From assembly GCA_046047315.1 (NCBI GenBank), contig JBJOID010000062.1, positions 5,896 to 69,895 of the forward strand: a stretch of DNA of 64,000 nt, written 5' to 3'. A program made the translations under genes and the position numbers. Origin of the DNA: Candidatus Hydrogenedentota bacterium. Lineage in GTDB: Bacteria; Hydrogenedentota; Hydrogenedentia; Hydrogenedentales; JAEUWI01. Shown here one piece after another: positions 3,225-53,278 of this stretch. Below the pieces are notes generated by a model, which saw only the letters and a program-made list of their open reading frames with translations, was not told where the DNA came from and searched no databases. Numbering within the stretch: the stretch's first letter is position 1; every line of letters begins with the position of its first letter.

Positions 3225-4175
3225 TTACTCGAACAAGCTGTTCAATGCCGCGTGGCTTACCGTCGCGGGGAAGGTCTCGCCCAACCCCACGTATTCGACA
3301 TGTCCATCGAGGTACAGGGCATTGCACCCGCCCGGCACGTGGTTGAAGCCAACGCCGCCGCCGATATTGGTGCTGATCTTGTCCCAAGCCACAGGCAAGG
3401 TGGATTGCGCCCGCGCGGCCGCGCCGGGATTGTTGATGTCGGTAATCACGAAACGCTCGATGCCCTCGCGCAGGCGATAGAGGTTCGCGCTCTGGCCATT
3501 CCCGTCCGTGGTGTAGTCGAGGGTCGTTGCATCGCGCAGTGCCGCGAGGTCAATGTCCTCATCCAGAATGAAGTCATCCGCAGGATCCTTGTTCAGCGCC
3601 GCGTCACCCACCACCACGGAAAGTGCAATGAACTGGTTTGGCGCCTCGATAGGGGTCGGGGTCGGGAAAGGCACCACCGAACGGGGATGGGACTCGTCGA
3701 CCCGGTCGAGCGCGAAGCCCACGTAGTTGTAACTCTCATCCCCCTCGGTCACCACTCCCACGTAGGCGCAAGTGTCAGTCCCATCATCCGCTACCACCAG
3801 CAGATCATTCTCCTGTCCCACATCAGCGTCGCTTGGGCAGACCAGCACGTTCAGGTCGGTCAGGTATTCCGGATACAGCGCCACCATGTCGGCCATGAAG
3901 ACGCCGTTGTCGTGAAAGCTGTCGGGGTCGCAGCCGGTCGCATTCGCCGCCAGCCCGAAGGCATGGTCACCGTCCACCCGGGGATACCGCTCGCCCTTCG
4001 ACTCGGTGGCGTACATCTTGAGCACAAGCCCCAGCTGCTTCAGGTTGTTCTGGCACGAAGCCCTGCGAGCCGCTTCCCGGGCACGCGCGAGCGCGGGCAA
4101 CAGGATGGCAGCCAGAATGCCGATGATGGCAATCACGACAAGCAGTTCAATCAGGGTGAATCCATTCCGCTTCAT
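3225..4175 (-). CDS. DUF1559 (H-X9-DG) protein with prepilin-type N-terminal cleavage/methylation domain
   Basis: N-terminus [29 protein letters not shown] is a prepilin peptidase signal plus hydrophobic helix. C-terminal YLDGHVEYV motif. This family is highly expanded in Planctomycetes and Verrucomicrobia. Confidence 0.8.
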
Positions 4176-4341
4176 AAGGTCGCTCCTGCAAAAAGTCCTT
4201 CATCCTAACACACTTCCAGACGAAGCCGAAGCGGCAGAGGTTTCCACCACAGAGGAACAATCTGCATCCCGGAAACCGGCCGCCCGCGAGGTTCTCCGCG
4301 AAATATCCAGTAAAGCCGGGACCTTTGCCCGCCGATAGGCT

Positions 4342-4357
4342 TGGTACGCCGCTTGCG
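4342..4357 (+). promoter_or_regulatory. sigma54 (RpoN) -24/-12 promoter upstream of flgK
   Basis: TGGTACG-ccgc-TTGCG matches the TGGCACG-N4-TTGCW consensus with one mismatch. It lies about 62-76 nt upstream of the flgK ATG. Confidence 0.5.
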
Positions 4358-4417
4358 TGGAAGCCAACGGCGAAGTGCGCCATCACCACGGAACAAGCTG
4401 CGGGAGCAAACACACGG

Positions 4418-6133
4418 ATGGGTACCCTCTTCAGCGCGCTGGACATCGGCCGGGGCGGCCTTCAGGTGGCGCAGGTTCAACTCGACACGGCCAGCAACAA
4501 CATTGCGAACGTGAACCGGCCGGGCTTTTCGCGGCAGCGGGTCAACCTGCTCACGCGTGAACCGAACCTCAAGCCTTACGGCGCGCTCGGGCGCGGTGTT
4601 TTCGTGAGCGGTATAGACCGCCTGCGCGACCAGTTCCTGGATGTCGCGTTCCGCCAGGAAGTGGCCAGCTTCGGGGCGGCGGATACCGCCGCCACCTACT
4701 TCTCCCGCATCGAAGACATCTTCAACGAACCGGGAGACGCCAGCCTCTCGAACCGAATCAATGAGCTATTCGACGCCCTGCAGGATTTCGCCGCCGCCGT
4801 GGACAACCTGCCCACCCGTGTGGCCACCATCGAGCAGGCCTCCGCCCTGGCGGCCACCCTGAACGAAGTTGACCGCCGCCTCAACCTCCTGCGCTCGAAT
4901 GCGAATGATCAGGTGGGGGACACCGTCACGGAAATCAACTCCCTCGGCGAGCGCGTCGCCGAGCTCAACACCTCAATTCAGCGTCTGGAAGGTTCGGGAC
5001 GGGCGGCCAATGATCTGCGCGACCAGCGCGATGTGCTGCTCGACGAGCTCGCCGAGCTGGTCAATATCACCTACCGCGAACGCGACAACGGGATCGTGGA
5101 TGTGCTGATGGGCGGTGACCAGTTCATCACCGGACGCGACGTGCGCCTGCTGGAAGCGGTGGCCACACCGACCATCGACCCCGATCGGCCCGACATGCGC
5201 GAGGTCCGTTTCGCGGACACCGGCACCCCGGTCCTCGTGCGCGACGGCCGCCTGCGTGGACTGCTCGACATCCGGGACGACGCCATCGCGGGCGTCGAGG
5301 ATAGCGTCGATGAGCTTGCGCGTGGACTTATCAATTCCCTGAACGCCCTGCAAGCCTCGGGCAATGGCCTCTCCAACTTTGACGCGCCGCTTACCTCGAC
5401 CAACGCCGTGAGCGGCATCGACACCGCCCTCAACAGCGCGGGGCTGCCCGGCACGGTCACCGACGGTTCCTTCGATATCCTCGTCTATGACAACAGCGGC
5501 AACCTCGTCGAGACCCTGAACGTGCCCGTCTTTGCGTCGGGTCCGCTCATCCTGCAGAGCACACTCAACTCCGTGCGCCTGCTCATCAACGTGTCACCCA
5601 ACCTCAGCGCCAGCATCAGCGACGGCCTGCTCACGGTTTCGCCGGACGCCAACCGCACCTTCGTGCTGGCCAACGACACGAGTGGATTCCTCACCGCCTC
5701 CGGGTTGAACAGCTTCTACGCCGGCACCGACGCGGGCAGCATCGCCGTTAATCCCGACCTCGTGGCCCGGCCGGACTGGCTCAGCTCCAGCGACAGCCCG
5801 GACCCGCTTGAGACCGGCAACAACGCGGTTGCCCTCCTCATGGCGCAGCTTCGGGATCAGCCCGTCTTCTCCAGCAACACCGAGAACATCAACCAGTTCT
5901 ACGAGTCCGTGCTGGTGACCCTGGGGGTTGATGCGCGCGCCAACGCGCAGCTGCTCGAGCTTCAGGAAGACGCGGTAACCGACTTCGAATCCCGCCGGCT
6001 GGAGGTGAGCGGTGTCAATATCGACGAGGAAGTGACCAGCCTGCTTCAGTTCCAGCGCGCCTTCGAGGCTTCCGCCCGCGTCATCACCACGACCGACCGC
6101 ATGCTGGAAACCCTGCTGGGTATCGTCGCGTAG
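4418..6133 (+). CDS. flgK: flagellar hook-associated protein 1 FlgK
   Basis: N-terminus MGTLFSALDIGRGGLQVAQVQLDTASNNIANVNRPGFSRQRV and C-terminus VTSLLQFQRAFEASARVITTTDRMLETLLGI are both canonical FlgK. The start is set at the internal ATG at 4418; the upstream ORF part has no similarity. Confidence 0.85.
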   Translation: MGTLFSALDIGRGGLQVAQVQLDTASNNIANVNRPGFSRQRVNLLTREPNLKPYGALGRGVFVSGIDRLRDQFLDVAFRQEVASFGAADTAATYFSRIEDIFNEPGDASLSNRINELFDALQDFAAAVDNLPTRVATIEQASALAATLNEVDRRLNLLRSNANDQVGDTVTEINSLGERVAELNTSIQRLEGSGRAANDLRDQRDVLLDELAELVNITYRERDNGIVDVLMGGDQFITGRDVRLLEAVATPTIDPDRPDMREVRFADTGTPVLVRDGRLRGLLDIRDDAIAGVEDSVDELARGLINSLNALQASGNGLSNFDAPLTSTNAVSGIDTALNSAGLPGTVTDGSFDILVYDNSGNLVETLNVPVFASGPLILQSTLNSVRLLINVSPNLSASISDGLLTVSPDANRTFVLANDTSGFLTASGLNSFYAGTDAGSIAVNPDLVARPDWLSSSDSPDPLETGNNAVALLMAQLRDQPVFSSNTENINQFYESVLVTLGVDARANAQLLELQEDAVTDFESRRLEVSGVNIDEEVTSLLQFQRAFEASARVITTTDRMLETLLGIVA

Positions 6134-47901: not shown

Positions 47902-48971
47902 ATGCCCTTTTCCAGCAGGTGCTGCAAGCCCTCAGGATCAGAGCTCCGCTTGAAGGCCATGTCGGTGGTGATGACGCCGCGCCGCATCAGGCGATAGAGC
48001 GACTGGTTCATGGTCATCATGCCTTCGCCCTTGCCGATTTCAATCATCGAGGGAATCTGCTCCAGCTTTTCCGAGCGAATCAGCGCGCGGATGGCGGGAT
48101 TGGGCAGCATGATTTCCATGGCCATCACGCGGCCCATGCCGTCGGCGCGCGGCACCAGTTGCTGCACCACCACCGCCTCAAGCACGAAGGACAACTGCGT
48201 GCGCACCTGATCCTGCTGGCCGCTGGGGAACACGTCGATGATGCGGTTCATCGTCTGGAGCGCATCGTTGGTGTGCAGCGTGGCGAAGGCCAAGTGGCCC
48301 GTTTCCGCCACGGTGATGGCCGCCTGGATGGTTTCGATGTCGCGCATTTCGCCGACCAGGATTACGTCGGGGTCTTGGCGCAGCACGCGCTTGAGCGCCT
48401 CGGAGAAACTGCGCGTGTCGGAATGCACCTCGCGCTGGTTGATAACCGACTGGTTATGGTTGTGCAGGTATTCGATCGGGTCCTCGATCGTGATGATGTG
48501 CACGTTGCGCTCGGAATTGATCTTGTCGATGATCGACGCGAGCGTGGTTGACTTACCGGAGCCCGTGGGCCCGCAAATCAATACGAGGCCGAGCGGGCGG
48601 TAGGCCAGGTCGGACACCGCGCGCGGAAGGCCCAGCTGTTCCGCCGACAAGATCTCGAAGGGAATGGCGCGGAACGCGCCCACCACGCTGCCGCGATCGC
48701 GGTACACGTTCAGACGGAAGCGGCTCAGTCCCTCGATGCCGAAGGAGAGATCGCATTCCTTCGTCGCTTCGAACTCGGACACTTGGTCCTCGTTCATCAC
48801 CGTGTAGATGATTTCCTGCGTCTGGTCCGCCATCAGGCGCGGATAGCCCTCAAGCGGTTGCAGCCCCCCATGCAGGCGGATCATGGGCGGCGCCCCCACC
48901 ACGATGTGCAGGTCGCTCGCGCCCTCGCGAATCATCTTCGTCAACAGCTCGCGAATGCTTGGCGTGGCCAT
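47898..48971 (-). CDS. pilT: twitching motility ATPase PilT
   Basis: MIREGASDLHI..., Walker A ICGPTGSGKSTTLASII, the PilT C-terminal AIRALIRSEK...GMMTMNQSLYRLMRRGVIT; 357 aa. Confidence 0.85.
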   Translation of the reverse strand: MATPSIRELLTKMIREGASDLHIVVGAPPMIRLHGGLQPLEGYPRLMADQTQEIIYTVMNEDQVSEFEATKECDLSFGIEGLSRFRLNVYRDRGSVVGAFRAIPFEILSAEQLGLPRAVSDLAYRPLGLVLICGPTGSGKSTTLASIIDKINSERNVHIITIEDPIEYLHNHNQSVINQREVHSDTRSFSEALKRVLRQDPDVILVGEMRDIETIQAAITVAETGHLAFATLHTNDALQTMNRIIDVFPSGQQDQVRTQLSFVLEAVVVQQLVPRADGMGRVMAMEIMLPNPAIRALIRSEKLEQIPSMIEIGKGEGMMTMNQSLYRLMRRGVITTDMAFKRSSDPEGLQHLLEKGM

Positions 48972-49012: not shown

Positions 49013-50737
49013 CTAATCCGCAGGCGTATGCTCCAACACTTGCTCGATGGTGCTCAGGCCCTTGGCGGCCTTGGCCAGCGAGTTTTGGCGGAGCGACTTC
49101 ATGCCGCAGGCGATGGCGGCCTGTTTCAGTTCGTAGCCCGAGGCGCGGCGCAGCACAAGCGGTTGGATGTCCGGCCAGTTCAGCAGCACCTCGACCACGG
49201 CCACGCGGCCGCGATAGCCGCTGTCCTTGCACTTGCTGCATCCGCGTCCACGCACCCACTTGATCTCGTCGAGGTAGTCGAAGCCTCGGTACTGGATGCG
49301 GTCGAGCACCTCGTCCGGCACGTGGATGCGCTCCTTGCACTCGGCGCACACGCGCTTCATCAGGCGTTGCGCGGCGGCCAGCGCCACGGAGGATTGCACC
49401 AGGAAGGGCTCGATGCCCATGTCGATCAAACGGGGGAACACGCCCGCCGCGTCATTGGTGTGCAGCGTGCTCAACACGAGGTGGCCGGTGAGCGCCGCCT
49501 TCACGGCCACGTCCGCAGTTTCGCCGTCGCGGATTTCGCCCACCATCACCACATCCGGGTCTTGGCGCAGAATTTGCCGCAGGGCGTCGGCGAAGGTGAA
49601 GCCGATGCGCGAGTTCACCTGCACCTGGTTCACCCCGAAGAGGTCGTATTCCACCGGGTCTTCCACGGTCACCACGTTGGTCTCGATGTCGCACAGCTTG
49701 CTGAGCGCACTGTAGAGCGTGGTGGTCTTGCCGCTGCCGGTAGGGCCGGTCAGCAGGATCATGCCGTGGGGCAGCTGCAGCGCCTCGCGGAATGCGTTCA
49801 TGGGCTGCGGCTCGAAGCCGAGGCTGTCGAGGTCGAGCGTGAGGTTGCCGCGGTCGAGCACGCGCAGCACCACCTTCTCGCCAAACTTCACGGGCAGGAA
49901 GCCCACGCGGAAGTCGATCTCGCGGTCGTTGTAGCGAATGCGGAAGCGGCCGTCCTGCGGAAGGCGGTGCTCGTCGATGCGGCATCCGGCGAGAATCTTG
50001 AGGCGCGCGATGAGGTTGTGCTGGAGGCTCTTGGGCGGTCCCTTGGCCTCCTCGAGCGTGCCGTCCACGCGGTACCGGATGCGCATGATTTTCTCATACG
50101 GCTCGATATGGATGTCGCTCGCCCCGCGCTCAAGCCCGTTGAAGAGAATCAGGCGCACGAGCTTCTTGACCGGCTCGTCCTCCGCGCCCGCTTCGATCTT
50201 CGACACGTCCTCAATCTCGGACTGGTCTTTAAGCTCCTGCAGCGCGTCGGCCTCGCTGCCGCCGCCCACCAGCGACTTGTACAGGCTCTCCGCCTTGTCC
50301 CCGCCGTAGTGGCGGTTGATCGCGTCGCGCAGTTCCGAGGCCACCGCCACCACCGGTTCGATGTCGTAGCTGGTGAGCATGCGCAGGTCGTCGAGCGCCA
50401 TGATGTTCAGCGGGTCGGCCATCGCCAGTGTCAGCACGTCGCCGGTCACGGATACCGGCAGCATCTGGTACTGGCGCGCCAGCGTCTCCGGCACCTCGGC
50501 CAGCACCTCCTTGGGGATGGAGTAATGCGCCACGCGGATGTGCGGTATGCCCAGCTGCTCGCTCAGCGTGACGACCAGGTCTTCCTCGGAGAGGTATCCC
50601 TTTTCGACCAGCAGCGTCGGCAGGCTGTTGCCCGTGGCGCGTTGCAGGTTGATGCACTCGGTCAGCTGTTCCTGCGTGACCAGCTGCTGCTCCAGCAGCA
50701 TGTCGGGCAGGCGCTTCTTCGCAAACTTCGTTGCCAT
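49013..50737 (-). CDS. pilB: type IV pilus assembly ATPase PilB (GspE family)
   Basis: N-terminal MshEN-like RLPDMLLEQQLVTQEQLTECINLQ; Walker [19 protein letters not shown]; tetracysteine CAECK...CSKCKDSGYRG. Start ATG at 50737 (AGGAG SD). The ORF-track N-terminal 18 aa are rejected. Confidence 0.85.
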   Translation of the reverse strand: MATKFAKKRLPDMLLEQQLVTQEQLTECINLQRATGNSLPTLLVEKGYLSEEDLVVTLSEQLGIPHIRVAHYSIPKEVLAEVPETLARQYQMLPVSVTGDVLTLAMADPLNIMALDDLRMLTSYDIEPVVAVASELRDAINRHYGGDKAESLYKSLVGGGSEADALQELKDQSEIEDVSKIEAGAEDEPVKKLVRLILFNGLERGASDIHIEPYEKIMRIRYRVDGTLEEAKGPPKSLQHNLIARLKILAGCRIDEHRLPQDGRFRIRYNDREIDFRVGFLPVKFGEKVVLRVLDRGNLTLDLDSLGFEPQPMNAFREALQLPHGMILLTGPTGSGKTTTLYSALSKLCDIETNVVTVEDPVEYDLFGVNQVQVNSRIGFTFADALRQILRQDPDVVMVGEIRDGETADVAVKAALTGHLVLSTLHTNDAAGVFPRLIDMGIEPFLVQSSVALAAAQRLMKRVCAECKERIHVPDEVLDRIQYRGFDYLDEIKWVRGRGCSKCKDSGYRGRVAVVEVLLNWPDIQPLVLRRASGYELKQAAIACGMKSLRQNSLAKAAKGLSTIEQVLEHTPAD

Positions 50738-50803
50738 GGGCAGACTCCTAGCGCGGCGCGCGCGCCTTGCGCCGCCACTCAGCGCAAGCACTACTTCTCG
50801 TCA

Positions 50804-52957
50804 TCAGGCGGCCTGCTCGTCACCCAGATGGCTGAGGATTTCGCTTGCGGATTCGCAGGAGATTTCCTGGCCCACCAGGTCGGAATAGGCGATGATCTTT
50901 CTCAACGAACCGGTCATCTTCCGGATGTCTTTGGGCACCCGCATCGCCACCAGGTTCAGTATCTCGTCGGGCAGCCCGGCCTTTTGCGTCTGGGCCGCCT
51001 GCCGCAATATCTCGACGCGGGCCTCCCATTCGGGAGCCTTCAATTCGGCCACGATGCCGCTGGCGAACCGGGACACGAGGCGCTTCTCAAGCAGGCCCAG
51101 CCGGTCCGGCGCCTTGTCGGAAGCGATGATAATCTGTCTCCCGGCACGGTGCAACGTGTTGAAAATATGGAAGAATTCTTCCTGCGCCTCCACCCGTCCC
51201 CCGAGAAACTGGATGTCGTCGAGGATGAGCACTTCCCAACAGCAGTAGTTTTCCCTGAAGGCGTCCATCGCCTTGGCCGAGGCCGCCTCGCTCAAGCGGC
51301 GCGAGAAGTGGCTGGCGCTCACGTAGCCCACGCGCAAGGATGGATTCTTCTCGTTGATGGCGTTGCCAATCGCGCTGATAAGGTGCGTCTTGCCCAGGCC
51401 GACGCTGCCAAAGAGGAAGAAGGGGTTGTATTCCCCGCCCGGTTTGGCCGCCACAGCCTGCGCCAGCTTGAATGTAAATGCGTTGGCCTTGCCCGCGATG
51501 AAGTTCGAGAAGTTGAAAGTCTCGGTCGGCTGGTCGGTTTCCAGCGCGTCGTAGACCTGCTGGTCCGCCTCGCGCTGCGGGTCGTCGTCGCCCTGCTTCG
51601 GGATGCGCCCGTGAAAGGGCATTACCGAGCTGTGCGCCCCGCGCTTCACCAGACGGCTGCCGTCCTGGTTCTCGTGCGTGCTCACCTGCTCGGCCAGCAG
51701 GGCAGCCTGCTGCACGGACTGCAGCGCGCTCTCCGCGATCTGTTCCAGCTTCTGGCTGGTTTCCGCCTGGGCCTCGCGCAGGGCGCTTACCACCTGCGCG
51801 ATGCTGTCGCCATCGGAAGGCTTGGCGCCCATGGCGCGAATCTGCACCAGCAGCGCGGCCATCGCCTCCTGCATCGCCCCGCCCACACTGTCGCGAATCA
51901 GCGCGGCGAGGGCCTCGGGCGGCAGGGCAGCGTCCCCGCCAGCCGCCGGGGACGGCGCAGACACCGTCGCGCCCCGCAGGCTTTGTGAAAGTTTTTCTGC
52001 CATCTCGGCCTGGGAAGAGGCAATCAGTTGGGCAATGCTTTCGAGGCTGGGTTGCGCGGCCTGCTCGGCCCGCATCTTCACCATCAGCGCCGCCAGCGCC
52101 TCTTGAAAAGCGCCGCCCACGCTGTCGTGCAATACATTCGCCAACGCGCCCATGTCTACGCCGCCACCCGCCGCCGGGACCGCCGCCACGGGTTGGCTTG
52201 CGGGCAGCGATTCCCTCAGCGCCTCCTTGATGGCCTGCGCGTACACCTCGGGAGCAACGCCGCCGCCACCCCCATTTCCCATGTTCTTGCCGATATCCTG
52301 GAAGCCTTCACGCACCGCGTTCAGCAGGGCGGCCTGCGTGGATTGCAAGGCCTGCGCAATCGCCGCCGCCTCCGCACCCGACGACTGTGCGGGAGTAGCC
52401 GGCGCCGCTGGCGCGGAGTGCGTCGGGGCCGGCGCGGCCGTGGCGGGCTGGGGCCTGGGGGGTTCTGGCTTGGGGGCGGGCGCCGCGGCCCGCAGGCCCA
52501 GGCTTTCCGCGGTAAGGGAATGCTGGCCCCCGTTCTGCTGCTTGCTCGCCTGCTCGCCAAAGACCTTCTCGGAAACGATGGCGTAATGTTCCCAGTTGCA
52601 GAGAATCGGCTTGATGCGCAGCTCCGGGCAGGATTCCCGGATAGCTTGCAGCGCTTCGAGATCGAGTGGATCCACCATCGCCACCGTGAGGATGCGGCCC
52701 AGCTTGTCAATCGGCAGCACGTGGTGCTGGCGGCAAACTTCCGCCGGAATCAACTGCAGCACATCGGGCCCGATGTTGTAGTCCAACAGGCTCAAGTGAG
52801 GTATCTTGCACTGCTTCACCAGCGCGCTCGCCACCGCCTCCTGAGACACGAACCCCTGGCGCACGAGGATGCGCCCGAGAAAGCCGCCCTCCGCCGCCTG
52901 CATGGCGAGTGCCGCGTCGAGCTGCTCCTGGCTGATCAGCCCTTCTTCCAACAGCAA
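50804..52957 (-). CDS. novel fusion: GspE-N/MshEN domain + repeat-containing Ala/Pro/Gln-rich linker + DnaA-type AAA+ domain (DnaA domain III) with no DNA-binding domain IV
   Basis: N-terminus (K)TLGQLLLEEGLISQEQLDAALAMQ...GRILVRQGFVSQEAV...LIPAEVCRQHHVLPIDKLGRILTVAMVDPLDLEALQAI is a T2SSE_N/MshEN fold with the 24-residue motif. Linker aa ~140-470 carries tandem repeats of about 78 aa (ALANVLHDSVGGAFQEALAALMVKMRAEQ... / ALAALIRDSVGGAMQEAMAALLVQIRAMG...). The C-terminus aligns to E. coli DnaA domain III: TFNFSNFIAGKANAFTFKLAQAVAAKPGGEYNPFFLFGSVGLGKTHLISAIGN (Walker A), LILDDIQFLGGRVEAQEEFFHIFNTL (Walker B), IIIASDKAP (sensor 1), LEKRLVSRFASGIVAEL (Arg finger), IRKMTGSLRKIIAYSDL (sensor 2). The protein ends at SHLGDEQAA, so domain IV is absent. 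Only 66 nt separate it from pilB. The ORF-track start is a TTG; the true start may lie further upstream. Confidence 0.7.
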   Translation of the reverse strand: MLLEEGLISQEQLDAALAMQAAEGGFLGRILVRQGFVSQEAVASALVKQCKIPHLSLLDYNIGPDVLQLIPAEVCRQHHVLPIDKLGRILTVAMVDPLDLEALQAIRESCPELRIKPILCNWEHYAIVSEKVFGEQASKQQNGGQHSLTAESLGLRAAAPAPKPEPPRPQPATAAPAPTHSAPAAPATPAQSSGAEAAAIAQALQSTQAALLNAVREGFQDIGKNMGNGGGGGVAPEVYAQAIKEALRESLPASQPVAAVPAAGGGVDMGALANVLHDSVGGAFQEALAALMVKMRAEQAAQPSLESIAQLIASSQAEMAEKLSQSLRGATVSAPSPAAGGDAALPPEALAALIRDSVGGAMQEAMAALLVQIRAMGAKPSDGDSIAQVVSALREAQAETSQKLEQIAESALQSVQQAALLAEQVSTHENQDGSRLVKRGAHSSVMPFHGRIPKQGDDDPQREADQQVYDALETDQPTETFNFSNFIAGKANAFTFKLAQAVAAKPGGEYNPFFLFGSVGLGKTHLISAIGNAINEKNPSLRVGYVSASHFSRRLSEAASAKAMDAFRENYCCWEVLILDDIQFLGGRVEAQEEFFHIFNTLHRAGRQIIIASDKAPDRLGLLEKRLVSRFASGIVAELKAPEWEARVEILRQAAQTQKAGLPDEILNLVAMRVPKDIRKMTGSLRKIIAYSDLVGQEISCESASEILSHLGDEQAA

Positions 52958-53278
52958 CTGCCCCAGGGTTTTCTGGGGCTCGAAGGTGGTGCCTCCAAGG
53001 AGGCTATCGGTGGATGAACCAGCCGTGACCCGTACTCCAAAGCAAACGCGACCGCAACGCAGAAACCAAGGAAGTTTCTTGACACAAGCTACGAATAAGA
53101 CGCATCGTAGCCATCTTGAATTCTACCCGGCTTCGGTATCCCCGTCAAGCGGTGAAAGCTGCGCAGGCCGATGAACAGGGCGCGGGGGCTGGTTGGCAGG
53201 GGTTCGACATACAGCGGCGGACCTGTCAGAATTTTTTTGGGAGAATACGTTGATGGGCTGCCGAAGGAGATTTGTCCT

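What the first reader, a model, noticed from the sequence alone, without database searches (positions are those of the whole stretch)
50804..53125. Unprecedented architecture: MshEN (GspE-N) domain fused to a DnaA-type AAA+ module without DNA-binding domain IV, encoded as first gene of a pilB-pilT-pilS-pilR cluster
The 717-aa product has three parts.
- N-terminus: a type II/IV secretion ATPase N-domain (T2SSE_N) carrying an intact 24-residue MshEN-type motif, TLGQLLLEEGLISQEQLDAALAMQ. In MshE and PilB that motif binds c-di-GMP.
- Middle: a roughly 330-aa low-complexity linker with internal repeats.
- C-terminus: a domain that aligns almost residue-for-residue with DnaA domain III. Walker A GSVGLGKTHL, Walker B LILDDIQF, sensor 1 SDKAP, the box-VII arginines in RLVSRFASG and sensor 2 IRKMTGSL are all conserved.

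It lacks DnaA domain I/II (helicase loading) and stops right after the AAA+ lid, so it has no domain IV and cannot read DnaA boxes. It is not Hda-like: its similarity to DnaA itself is much higher than Hda shows, and I see no QL[SP]LF clamp motif.

The gene is 66 nt upstream of pilB, which is followed by pilT and GTGA-coupled pilS and pilR. I know of no described family that combines these domains. Plausible roles are a c-di-GMP-responsive ATP switch acting on the pilus motor, or a DnaA-titrating or DnaA-mimicking factor that couples replication status to pilus or motility functions.
Basis: partly seen in the sequence, partly recalled or inferred. Interest (0 to 1): 0.85.

Follow-up and report, generated by a model that had tools for sequence, protein, structure and literature searches.

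The report
DnaA-like ATPase attached to pilus genes
This gene encodes a protein with the ATP-driven self-assembly module of the replication initiator DnaA, the head domain of the pilus-extension motor PilB, and no DNA-reading domain; it belongs to a large, unstudied family (usually mislabelled "DnaA") that nearly always sits beside type IV pilus genes, so it most likely works on the pilus machine rather than on replication.

Summary
The architecture is real. It has an MshEN/GSPII head (Pfam 61 bits), an Ala/Gln-rich helical linker with two copies of a family-specific repeat, and a DnaA domain III AAA+ module (182 bits; rmsd 1.8 Å to B. subtilis DnaA-III). It ends after the lid. No domain IV occurs anywhere in the window.

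One flaw: the 717-aa ORF starts at a TTG inside the first c-di-GMP-type motif. The intact motif needs a start 26 codons upstream, where the window has GTA and 92-93 % identical relatives have GTG.

It is not unprecedented. About 100 clusters at 50 % identity share the architecture, and 175 GTDB species genomes (mostly Hydrogenedentota) encode a relative. None is characterised, and many are annotated "DnaA".

pilB lies directly downstream in 73 of 75 loci, and pilT-pilS-pilR usually follow. A second ~400-aa clade overlaps a pilM-pilN gene in 3 of 3 loci.

ATPase, arginine-finger and sensor residues are invariant. The hydrophobic ssDNA-contact position is lost in the window's clade.

Best reading: a pilus-machine accessory AAA+ switch, docked through a PilB-like head, possibly c-di-GMP-responsive. 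A role in DnaA titration is not supported.

The parts
53120..53148 (-). Sigma70-like promoter TTGACG-17 nt-TAGAAT upstream of the gene
   Evidence: Matches 10 of 12 consensus positions. Two such sites were found in the region against 0.3 expected. The sequence is identical in the 92 %-identical relative L004. This is a consensus match only.
53033..53035 (-). GTA codon at the position where close relatives have the GTG start codon
   Evidence: DNA alignment with L004. P0003 and P0004 begin MRVTAGSS.... Between this codon and TTG 52957, the two sequences differ by 3 synonymous changes and 1 non-synonymous change, which is consistent with the stretch being coding.
50804..52957 (-). Longest ORF with a canonical start (TTG), 717 aa. 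It is identical to NCBI protein P0001, annotated 'chromosomal replication initiator protein DnaA [Candidatus Hydrogenedentota bacterium]'
52811..52969 (-). 53-residue MshEN_N region: motif I TLGQLLLEEGLISQEQLDAALAMQ, spacer AAEGG, motif II FLGRILVRQGFVSQEAVASALVKQ. The first four codons lie upstream of the TTG start
   Evidence: Translation. NCBIfam NF053729 c-di-GMP_motif scores 54.6 bits against a cutoff of 38. Column statistics. Motif definition from PMC5013675.
52535..52975 (-). Complete MshEN / GSPII (PilB N1D-like) domain, residues 21-167 of the 743-aa reading
   Evidence: Pfam PF05157. TIGR02538 PilB positions 6-149 are matched. pLDDT is above 90. Foldseek matches MshE 5htl and PilF GSPII.
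51536..52534 (-). Ala/Gln/Gly/Ser/Pro-rich linker, predicted as long helices separated by disordered loops
   Evidence: pLDDT 30-77 and DSSP helices. Composition, Ala 21 %. Linker length ranges from about 60 to about 700 aa across the family.
52061..52156 (-). Family-specific repeat, copy 1 (DMGALANVLHDSVGGAFQEALAALMVKMRAEQ)
   Evidence: Repeat HMM, 39 bits, E 2e-14. Relatives carry 0-6 copies.
51827..51925 (-). Family-specific repeat, copy 2 (LPPEALAALIRDSVGGAMQEAMAALLVQIRAMG)
   Evidence: Repeat HMM, 58 bits, E 2e-20.
50816..51523 (-). DnaA domain III-type AAA+ module (IIIa plus lid IIIb). The protein ends 3 residues later
   Evidence: PF00308 at 182 bits. phmmer against PDB: 8bv3, E 4.5e-57. 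Foldseek TM 0.93, rmsd 1.8 A.
51380..51409 (-). Walker A, GSVGLGKTHL
   Evidence: G, K, T and H are invariant in 76 of 76 relatives.
51215..51220 (-). Walker B aspartates (DD in LILDDIQF)
   Evidence: Invariant in alignments A3 and A4.
51068..51082 (-). Box VII, R-L-V-S-R. It holds the arginine-finger equivalent of E. coli R285
   Evidence: Both arginines are present in 76 of 76 relatives. The arginine-finger role is taken from PMC3287180.
50921..50923 (-). Sensor II arginine (in DIRKMTGSL)
   Evidence: Present in 76 of 76 relatives.
49013..50740 (-). pilB (extension ATPase), starting 63 nt after the stop codon. Its own MshEN motifs read RLP... and SLP...
   Evidence: T2SSE 433 bits and MshEN 84 bits. 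TIGR02538 629 bits. Motif reading.
47898..48971 (-). pilT (retraction ATPase)
   Evidence: TIGR01420 at 471 bits, above its cutoff of 319.
46303..47901 (-). pilS-type sensor kinase. Its GTG start overlaps the pilT stop (GTGA)
   Evidence: 6TM_PilS, PAS, HisKA and HATPase_c domains. Sequence at the junction.
44882..46285 (-). pilR-type sigma54 activator (REC, Sigma54_activat, HTH_8). The likely start is ATG 46285, preceded by GGAGG

Best explanation
[quoted passage not shown] It is not a replication protein.

Shown:
- The protein joins a PilB-N1D-type MshEN head to a DnaA domain III AAA+ module. The module keeps every residue needed to bind and hydrolyse ATP and to contact a neighbouring protomer through an arginine finger.
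- It has no DNA-binding domain IV.
- Genes of this architecture are fixed next to pilus genes in at least two lineages.

Inferred:
1. [quoted passage not shown] By analogy with GspE-GspL, that partner is the PilM stator. Docking to PilB itself is also possible.
2. ATP drives DnaA-like head-to-tail oligomerisation of the AAA+ modules. Hydrolysis through the arginine finger disassembles the oligomer, which gives an on/off switch.
3. The assembled state controls access of the PilB and PilT hexamers to the PilM/PilC platform. It could do this as a gate. It could instead act as a loader or exchanger of the ring ATPase, since initiator-clade AAA+ proteins are best known for loading ring ATPases. The sign of the effect is unknown.
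4. In the Hydrogenedentia the head keeps most c-di-GMP-contact positions, while the neighbouring PilB has lost the motif II glycine. The protein may therefore supply c-di-GMP input to the motor.

The variable linker, with 0-6 copies of an amphipathic repeat, acts as a tether or as additional binding sites. It is dispensable for the core function, because short forms lack it.

In this particular window the normal start codon reads GTA. This copy may therefore be made from TTG without the first four motif residues, or the base may be a consensus error.
For: Architecture and fold.

ATPase and oligomerisation residues are invariant in 76 relatives and nearly so in 35 more distant ones (alignments).

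Synteny:
- Seven loci with gene calls, from proteins down to about 37 % identity, all show X-pilB-pilT-pilS-pilR. Short forms add pilC.
- In 80 GTDB species-representative loci, pilB is directly downstream in 73 of 75 assessable cases (gap 16-354 nt, median 59). pilT is next in 57 of 66. pilS plus pilR follow in 50 of 51.
- Genes upstream of X differ from locus to locus, so X is the first gene of the conserved block.

Independent support:
- The roughly 400-aa clade overlaps a pilM-pilN fusion gene by 4-8 nt in 3 of 3 loci, followed in two of them (L088, L089) by pilO, an AMIN-domain gene and pilQ; in L090 other genes follow pilM-pilN.
- A further variant lies among Roadblock/LC7 and PATAN-domain genes.

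The head matches PilB (TIGR02538 positions 6-149). The PilB N1D is thought to meet the PilM stator (review PMC11656802).

c-di-GMP positions in the family: L2, G3, L6, L7, L17 and Q24 of motif I, and L2, G3, L6, V7 and Q24 of motif II, are conserved. The 5-residue spacer is kept (compared with PMC5013675). NF053729 scores above its cutoff.

The co-encoded PilB has motif II glycine in 0 of 73 loci and motif I glycine in 39 of 73.
Against: - There is no experimental datum for any member.
- Binding to PilM or PilB is inferred from homology of the head and from gene order only. I could not model complexes.
- c-di-GMP binding is uncertain for this protein. Arg9 of MshE is Thr here, although it is Arg in 47 of 69 relatives. 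Arg38 is Phe in 72 of 76. Neither fits even the relaxed motif of Wang et al..
- With the TTG start, four motif residues are missing.
- The pilM-linked clade lacks both motif glycines.
- The NCBIfam c-di-GMP model also passes the neighbouring PilB, at 48 bits. The 'outsourced sensor' idea therefore rests on single positions.
- Nine of 66 loci have pilB but no pilT next to it.
- Two 'Fermentibacteria' loci carrying giant multi-AAA+ proteins have no pilB adjacent.
- The AAA+ module is so DnaA-like that an interaction with DnaA cannot be excluded.
Confidence: 0.55

Rival explanations
1. Replication-coupling factor. The DnaA-III module forms mixed oligomers with the cell's real DnaA, as a cap or dominant negative, or it stimulates DnaA-ATP hydrolysis as Hda does. 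Pilus activity or c-di-GMP would thereby tune initiation of replication.
For: - 39-46 % identity and rmsd 1.8 A to DnaA domain III, much closer than Hda.
- The arginine finger, box VII and sensor II are all retained. These are the surfaces DnaA protomers use to contact one another (PMC3287180).
- The organism evidently uses DnaA boxes: there is a cluster upstream of dnaN in the same window.
Against: - No dnaA, dnaN or origin-like region is adjacent in any of about 90 loci. The dnaN in this window is 33 kb away, and that distance is not conserved.
- There is no Hda-type clamp-binding peptide. The N-terminus is a folded MshEN domain.
- The Hda model scores 102 bits against a cutoff of 195.
- Gene-order conservation points to pilus genes in two independent contexts.
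Confidence: 0.1
2. Single-stranded-DNA handler for pilus-dependent DNA uptake. The DnaA-III module binds incoming ssDNA, as DnaA binds the unwound origin, while the head anchors it at the pilus base.
For: - DnaA domain III binds ssDNA in its ATP-bound oligomer (PMC3287180).
- The basic B-motif position is kept as R or K in 76 of 76 long forms.
- Short Abyssobacteria forms keep both the H and B motifs.
- Type IV pili drive DNA uptake in many bacteria (established knowledge).
Against: - The hydrophobic H-motif position (T. maritima V176) is K, A or S in the window's clade.
- The second basic position is an invariant Glu.
- The pilM-linked clade has lost both motifs.
- No comEA, comEC, dprA or comF genes were seen in the neighbourhoods examined.
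Confidence: 0.08
3. In this particular genome the gene is damaged or down-regulated. The start codon has mutated from GTG to GTA, so little or no full-length protein is made, or only an N-terminally clipped form from TTG 52957.
For: - GTA stands where relatives of 92-93 % identity have GTG.
- No other canonical start lies in frame upstream of the TTG.
Against: - The rest of the ORF is intact, with third-position GC of 0.83 like its neighbours.
- The window comes from a metagenome-assembled genome (P0001), so a single-base consensus error is as likely as a real mutation.
- Gene callers also started several more distant relatives at the equivalent Leu codon (P0008, P0010, P0011, P0103, P0110). 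A start at that position may be tolerated, or may simply be a gene-calling artefact.
Confidence: 0.12

Closest known systems
DnaA, chromosomal replication initiator (domain III, AAA+ initiator clade)
   Same: - The fold matches (rmsd 1.8 A, TM 0.93 to B. subtilis DnaA-III).
- Sequence identity is 39-46 %.
- Walker A/B, sensor I, box VII with the arginine finger, sensor II and the lid subdomain are all present.
   Different: - It has no domain I, no DnaA-type domain II and no DNA-binding domain IV.
- The H-motif hydrophobic residue used for ssDNA binding is lost.
- It is encoded in a pilus operon, not at dnaA-dnaN.
- It scores below the TIGR00362 cutoff.
Hda / HdaA (DnaA-related inactivator)
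   Same: It is a DnaA paralogue that keeps only the AAA+ module and lacks domain IV.
   Different: - Hda is about 230-250 aa with an N-terminal clamp-binding peptide. This protein has a 150-aa MshEN domain and a 330-aa linker instead.
- Similarity is far lower: 102 bits against a cutoff of 195, and rmsd about 5 A.
MshE / PilB / PilF N-terminal MshEN (GSPII, N1D) domain
   Same: - The fold is the same, with both subdomains.
- It has the tandem 24-residue motifs with a 5-residue spacer, and most hydrophobic, Gly and Gln positions are conserved.
   Different: - It is not followed by a T2SSE motor ATPase.
- The stacking arginines are replaced: Thr here in motif I, Phe family-wide in motif II.
- The C-terminal subdomain is unusually conserved and carries three to four conserved cysteines.
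PilB cofactors PilZ and FimX (Xanthomonas, Pseudomonas)
   Same: They are cytoplasmic proteins that bring c-di-GMP input to the extension motor. This is what the new protein may work like.
   Different: The folds are unrelated (PilZ; degenerate GGDEF-EAL). They have no ATPase module and are not encoded as the first gene of the pilB operon. The resemblance is functional and hypothetical only (review PMC11656802).
DnaC / DnaI / IstB helper ATPases (initiator-loader clade AAA+)
   Same: Each is a small AAA+ of the same clade with an N-terminal adaptor domain that targets a ring-shaped hexameric motor. There are weak Pfam and NCBIfam hits to IstB_IS21 and DnaI.
   Different: Those hits are far weaker than the hits to DnaA. 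Their targets are DNA helicases or transposases, not PilB/PilT. The 'motor loader' analogy is inference only.

Membership tests
DnaA (replication initiator, TIGR00362 / Pfam DnaA_N + Bac_DnaA + Bac_DnaA_C) | AAA+ domain III of DnaA type | tested here: met
   PF00308 at 182 bits. Foldseek to 8bv3: TM 0.93, rmsd 1.8 A.
DnaA (replication initiator, TIGR00362 / Pfam DnaA_N + Bac_DnaA + Bac_DnaA_C) | C-terminal helix-turn-helix domain IV that reads DnaA boxes | tested here: not met
   No PF08299 hit. The protein ends 3 residues after the lid. tblastn with two canonical DnaA proteins finds nothing beyond their residue ~350 in any frame of the window. Relatives end at the same point.
DnaA (replication initiator, TIGR00362 / Pfam DnaA_N + Bac_DnaA + Bac_DnaA_C) | N-terminal domain I (DnaA_N), and a whole-protein score above the curated cutoff | tested here: not met
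   No DnaA_N hit. TIGR00362 scores 288 bits against a cutoff of 343.9.
Hda / HdaA | Curated model score above cutoff, and a size of about 230-250 aa | tested here: not met
   TIGR03420 scores 101.7 bits against a cutoff of 194.8. The protein is 717-743 aa.
Hda / HdaA | N-terminal beta-clamp-binding peptide (QL[SP]L[PF]-type) | tested here: not met
   The N-terminus is a short variable tail followed by a folded MshEN domain. I saw no such peptide when reading the sequence. The only 'QLLLE' lies inside helix 1 of MshEN.
MshEN c-di-GMP receptor domain (Wang et al. 2016, PMC5013675) | MshEN fold with two 24-residue motifs separated by 5 residues | tested here: met
   PF05157 at 61 bits. NF053729 at 54.6 bits against a cutoff of 38. 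Layout read. Foldseek to 5htl.
MshEN c-di-GMP receptor domain (Wang et al. 2016, PMC5013675) | Key contact residues: R-L-G at the start of each motif, the central Gly, the Leu cluster and the terminal Gln | tested here: inconclusive
   The L, G, Leu-cluster and Gln positions are conserved. The motif-initial Arg is Thr (motif I here) and Phe (motif II, 72 of 76 relatives). The published relaxed pattern is not matched. With the TTG start, the TLGQ residues are missing.
MshEN c-di-GMP receptor domain (Wang et al. 2016, PMC5013675) | Measured c-di-GMP binding | not testable with these tools
   Needs ITC or DRaCALA on the purified domain.
PilB/GspE-type assembly ATPase | T2SSE (PilT-like ASCE) motor domain after the N1 domain | tested here: not met
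   No PF00437 hit in this protein. The neighbouring gene has it at 433 bits.
Type IVa pilus gene-cluster component (operational definition) | Conserved adjacency to core pilus genes across distant genomes | tested here: met
   pilB is directly downstream in 73 of 75 loci. pilM-pilN is coupled in 3 of 3 loci of the second clade.
Type IVa pilus gene-cluster component (operational definition) | Physical interaction with, or phenotype on, the pilus machine | not testable with these tools
   No cultured host.

The most novel reading that the evidence does not exclude
The DnaA-like module still recognises the cell's own DnaA. The protein would then be a physical link between the pilus machine and chromosome replication. 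When released from, or activated at, the pilus base by surface contact or c-di-GMP, it would co-assemble with DnaA-ATP. It would then either cap the initiator filament or trigger its ATP hydrolysis, so that attachment state sets the timing of replication initiation.
Probability: 0.08. Interest if true: 0.9.

Novelty: new variant of a known kind. Interest (0 to 1): 0.62.

Why it matters
- DnaA domain III is regarded as a dedicated replication module. Its known paralogues (Hda and HdaA) still act on replication. A large family in which this module is fused to a pilus-motor head and fixed in pilus operons would be a clear case of an initiator ATPase re-used outside replication.
- It would add a new class of accessory factor to the type IV pilus machine. 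It may also explain how c-di-GMP reaches a PilB whose own sensor motif is degenerate.
- There is a practical consequence. Public annotations widely label these proteins 'chromosomal replication initiator protein DnaA'. That can mislead origin prediction, marker-gene counts and completeness estimates for Hydrogenedentota genomes.

Tried and rejected
- **Hidden domain IV through a frameshift.** Rejected. No domain IV signal occurs in any frame of the window. Only 63 nt separate the stop from pilB. All relatives share the same C-terminus.
- **A one-off fusion or assembly chimera.** Rejected. There are hundreds of relatives with the same architecture.
- **A single evolutionary origin for the two pilus-linked clades.** Not supported. 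In a neighbour-joining tree of AAA+ modules the joint grouping had 0 of 100 bootstraps, against 96 for the long forms and 70 for long plus short forms. The tree is crude and the DnaA sampling is biased, so I leave this open.
- **Literature searches.** I found no description of the architecture. The MshEN paper's supplement lists no DnaA fusion.
- **Showing a separate full-length dnaA in the same genome.** I could not do this. The DnaA-box cluster upstream of dnaN is only indirect evidence.
- **AFDB fold search.** The library was unavailable.
- **Conserved cysteines in the head.** The tool returns no model coordinates, so I could not test whether they cluster or whether the head contacts the AAA+ module.
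- **My first regex-based motif count.** It was too strict and I replaced it with alignment-column counts.
- **My first synteny count.** It was corrupted by cross-hits between the head and PilB, and I redid it.


Full report
**1. What is in the sequence**

On the minus strand, ORF 50804..52957 encodes 717 aa. Pfam finds MshEN (PF05157, 61 bits) and Bac_DnaA (PF00308, 182 bits) and does not find Bac_DnaA_C. NCBIfam gives DnaA TIGR00362 at 288 bits, below its cutoff of 344. That match covers profile positions 54-340 of 437, so it stops before domain IV. Hda scores 102 bits. The MshE-related c-di-GMP motif model NF053729 scores 54.6 bits, above its cutoff of 38.

Against PDB sequences the best matches are B. 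subtilis and T. maritima DnaA domain III (E about 1e-57 and 1e-55). Matches for the head follow: PilF, PilB and MshE N-domains.

An AlphaFold model built on 76 relatives folds residues 21-167 and 505-740 with pLDDT above 90. The 330 residues between them form long helices of moderate confidence separated by disordered loops. Foldseek superposes the C-terminal module on B. subtilis DnaA-III at TM 0.93 and rmsd 1.8 A. Hda structures superpose at rmsd about 5 A. The head matches MshE and PilF GSPII.

The linker is Ala/Gln-rich and holds two clear copies of a repeat...DSVGGA(F/M)QEA(L/M)AAL(M/L)V(K/Q)(M/I)RA....

Downstream on the same strand lie pilB (ATG 50740, 63 nt after the stop), pilT, a PilS-type kinase and a sigma54-type PilR.

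**2. The start-codon problem**

The 717-aa product begins MLLEEG. Between the upstream stop at 53125 and this TTG there is no ATG, GTG or TTG.

Relatives of 92-93 % identity start 26 codons upstream as MRVTAGSS.... Aligned to one of them (L004), the window has GTA where the relative has GTG. The 26 codons in between differ by three synonymous changes and one non-synonymous change, as expected for coding sequence.

A sigma70-like promoter (TTGACG-17-TAGAAT, 53148..53120) is conserved upstream. Either the base is a consensus error in a metagenome-assembled genome, or this copy has lost its normal start.

**3. No hidden domain IV**

tblastn with two canonical DnaA proteins matches only this gene in the window, and only up to their residue ~350. 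Eighteen diverse relatives all end at ...ILSHLG.E.AA. A frameshift or assembly error is excluded.

**4. It is a family, and a large one**

- The exact protein is in NCBI as 'chromosomal replication initiator protein DnaA [Candidatus Hydrogenedentota bacterium]'.
- All 120 best database hits have MshEN plus Bac_DnaA and are 550-1044 aa long. Where named, they come from Hydrogenedentes.
- A profile search of 1.84 billion cluster representatives, followed by local domain mapping, shows about 100 clusters at 50 % identity with MshEN-linker-AAA+. The linker ranges from about 60 to about 700 aa and holds 0-6 copies of the repeat.
- Short forms of 440-460 aa belong to Abyssobacteria, which NCBI places as a class of Hydrogenedentota.
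- A scan of one genome per GTDB species found 175 stretches that encode a relative. Titles are overwhelmingly Hydrogenedentota, with a few Abyssobacteria, Poribacteria and Fermentibacteria, and some evidently mislabelled bins.

**5. Gene order**

In seven loci with gene calls, from proteins down to about 37 % identity, the order is always X-pilB-pilT-pilS-pilR. Short forms add pilC. Upstream genes differ from locus to locus.

In the 80 species-representative loci:

| Feature | Loci |
|---|---|
| pilB directly downstream (gap 16-354 nt, median 59) | 73 of 75 |
| pilT next | 57 of 66 |
| pilS plus pilR after pilT | 50 of 51 |

A separate clade of about 400-aa MshEN-DnaA-III proteins, from unnamed bacteria with T9SS-type genes, overlaps a pilM-pilN fusion gene by 4-8 nt in 3 of 3 loci. 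In two of these (L088, L089) pilO, an AMIN-domain gene and pilQ follow; in the third (L090) different genes follow pilM-pilN. One more variant sits among Roadblock/LC7 and PATAN-domain genes.

No locus has dnaA or dnaN adjacent. This is strong guilt-by-association evidence for a role at the type IVa pilus machine. The pilM link fits the view that the N1/MshEN domain of extension ATPases meets the PilM stator (review PMC11656802).

**6. What the residues say**

- Walker A (G, K, T, H), the Walker B aspartates, sensor I Asp, both box VII arginines and the sensor II arginine are invariant in 76 relatives and nearly so in more distant ones. The module should therefore bind and hydrolyse ATP and contact a neighbour through an arginine finger, as DnaA does (PMC3287180).
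- The ssDNA-binding 'H' position (T. maritima V176, E. coli V211) is K, A or S in the window's clade. The 'B' basic position (T. maritima K209) is kept as R or K. Abyssobacteria forms keep both, and the pilM-linked clade keeps neither. DnaA-like ssDNA binding is thus not a conserved property of these proteins.
- In the head, the family keeps L-G, the hydrophobic core, the Leu cluster, the terminal Gln of both motifs and the 5-residue spacer. The motif-initial arginines are R, T or H in motif I (T here) and F in motif II (compared with PMC5013675).
- The neighbouring PilB reads RLP and SLP here. Across 73 loci it never has the motif II glycine, and it has the motif I glycine in 39. Changes at those glycines are among those blamed for loss of binding in XpsE.
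- This suggests, but does not prove, that the new protein carries the c-di-GMP input in Hydrogenedentia.
- The pilM-linked clade lacks both glycines. The common denominator of the architecture is therefore docking plus an ATP switch, not c-di-GMP.

**7. Mechanism proposed**

Shown: the architecture, the intact ATPase and arginine-finger residues, the absence of DNA-reading parts, and fixed adjacency to pilus genes.

Inferred: the head docks at the PilM/PilB interface of the machine. ATP-dependent DnaA-like oligomerisation and hydrolysis-driven disassembly form a switch. The switch gates or loads the PilB/PilT hexamers. In Hydrogenedentia, c-di-GMP may bias it. The linker tethers the two ends and is dispensable in short forms.

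I put 0.55 on this general reading, with pilus association itself being considerably more likely than that. I put about 0.1 on a DnaA-directed role, about 0.08 on ssDNA handling in DNA uptake, and about 0.12 on this particular copy being impaired by the start-codon change.

**8. Relation to the known**

The protein fails membership of DnaA: it has no domain I or IV and scores below the cutoff. It fails membership of Hda on score, on size and on the absence of a clamp peptide. It fails membership of PilB/GspE because it has no T2SSE domain. It contains a bona fide MshEN fold whose ligand binding is undecided.

No Pfam or NCBIfam model is dedicated to the family. I found no paper that mentions the combination, and the MshEN survey does not list it. 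It is best called a new variant: an uncharacterised, pilus-associated branch of the DnaA/Hda AAA+ group.

**9. Verdict**

'Unprecedented' is wrong as to rarity, but right in that nobody appears to have described the family. The pilus interpretation gains strong comparative support. The replication interpretation gains none.

Interest is 0.62. The finding is surprising for both the DnaA and the pilus fields, rests on solid comparative evidence and is directly testable. The mechanism is still inferred, and the hosts are uncultured.

Noticed in passing
window 15924..16608: The 686-nt, lower-GC intergenic region upstream of dnaN (16609..17715) holds a cluster of DnaA-box-like 9-mers. These include a perfect TTATCCACA at 16278, one-mismatch boxes at 16210 and 16365, and several further TGTGGAT/TGTGAAT elements, followed by an AT-rich stretch. 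No dnaA gene is adjacent; a GspE/PilB-like ATPase gene precedes the region. It may be oriC or a DnaA-regulated dnaN promoter. GC skew shows no sign change in the window.
   Followed up: partly
window 13965..15923 (+): A second PilB/GspE-type ATPase with its own MshEN domain (T2SSE 418 bits) lies next to the dnaN region. The genome therefore has at least two such motors in 64 kb. A pilin-like N_methyl/DUF1559 gene (3225..4175) and flgK (4325..6133) are also present.
   Followed up: no
window 52535..52810 (MshEN_C part of the protein); alignments A3 and A4: The C-terminal subdomain of the head is unusually conserved. It carries Cys76, Cys101 and Cys146 (743-aa numbering), which are invariant or nearly so even in short forms. 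Long forms add Cys136, and His80 and His150 are conserved as well. This could be a metal or redox site that PilB N1 domains do not have. I could not check it in 3D because no coordinates are returned.
   Followed up: no
window 50560..50740 (N-terminus of pilB); 73 related loci: The co-encoded PilB has Pro in place of the motif glycine in both MshEN half-motifs (RLP..., SLP...). Across the phylum the motif II glycine is absent in 73 of 73 loci. PilB itself may therefore no longer bind c-di-GMP.
   Followed up: partly
L088 8001..10873; L089 8001..10848; L090 7001..9888: A separate clade of ~400-aa MshEN-DnaA-III proteins is translationally coupled to a pilM-pilN fusion gene. In two loci a TPR gene lies upstream and pilO, an AMIN-domain gene and pilQ lie downstream. 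Its AAA+ module is nearer to canonical DnaA (50-55 % identity), and its MshEN lacks both motif glycines.
   Followed up: partly
proteins P0201, P0205, P0211, P0212, P0215, P0219, P0222, P0227 and others: These proteins of 570-700 aa carry two tandem DnaA-III-type AAA+ modules, with no MshEN and (with one exception) no domain IV. They are another uncharacterised DnaA-derived architecture.
   Followed up: no
L084, L085 (titles 'Candidatus Fermentibacteria'); proteins P0177 (1990 aa) and P0179 (1876 aa): Giant proteins begin with MshEN plus a DnaA-III module and carry a second DnaA-III module near the C-terminus. They are not followed by pilB.
   Followed up: no
L091 4068..9366: A 495-aa variant (P0351) lies among AAA_22, Roadblock/LC7 (MglB-like) and two PATAN-domain genes. 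These gene types are associated with polarity and pilus-based motility control.
   Followed up: no
window 52960..52979 (-): A 7-bp GC-rich hairpin (GCCCCAG-AAAACC-CTGGGGC) lies immediately upstream of the TTG at 52957, within the codons for PQKTLG. It is identical in L004. It may affect translation start choice, or it may be coincidental.
   Followed up: no
loci L011, L012, L017-L019, L028, L030, L046, L048, L052 and others: Many public MAG records that carry this Hydrogenedentota-type operon are titled 'uncultured Nitrospirales/Nitrospiraceae bacterium', and one is titled 'Candidatus Bathyarchaeia archaeon'. These are probably placeholder or mis-binned labels.
   Followed up: no
family N-termini: Most long forms begin with a conserved M(L)FGR(R)K peptide ahead of a variable low-complexity tail. 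The window's subclade lacks it. Its function is unknown.
   Followed up: no
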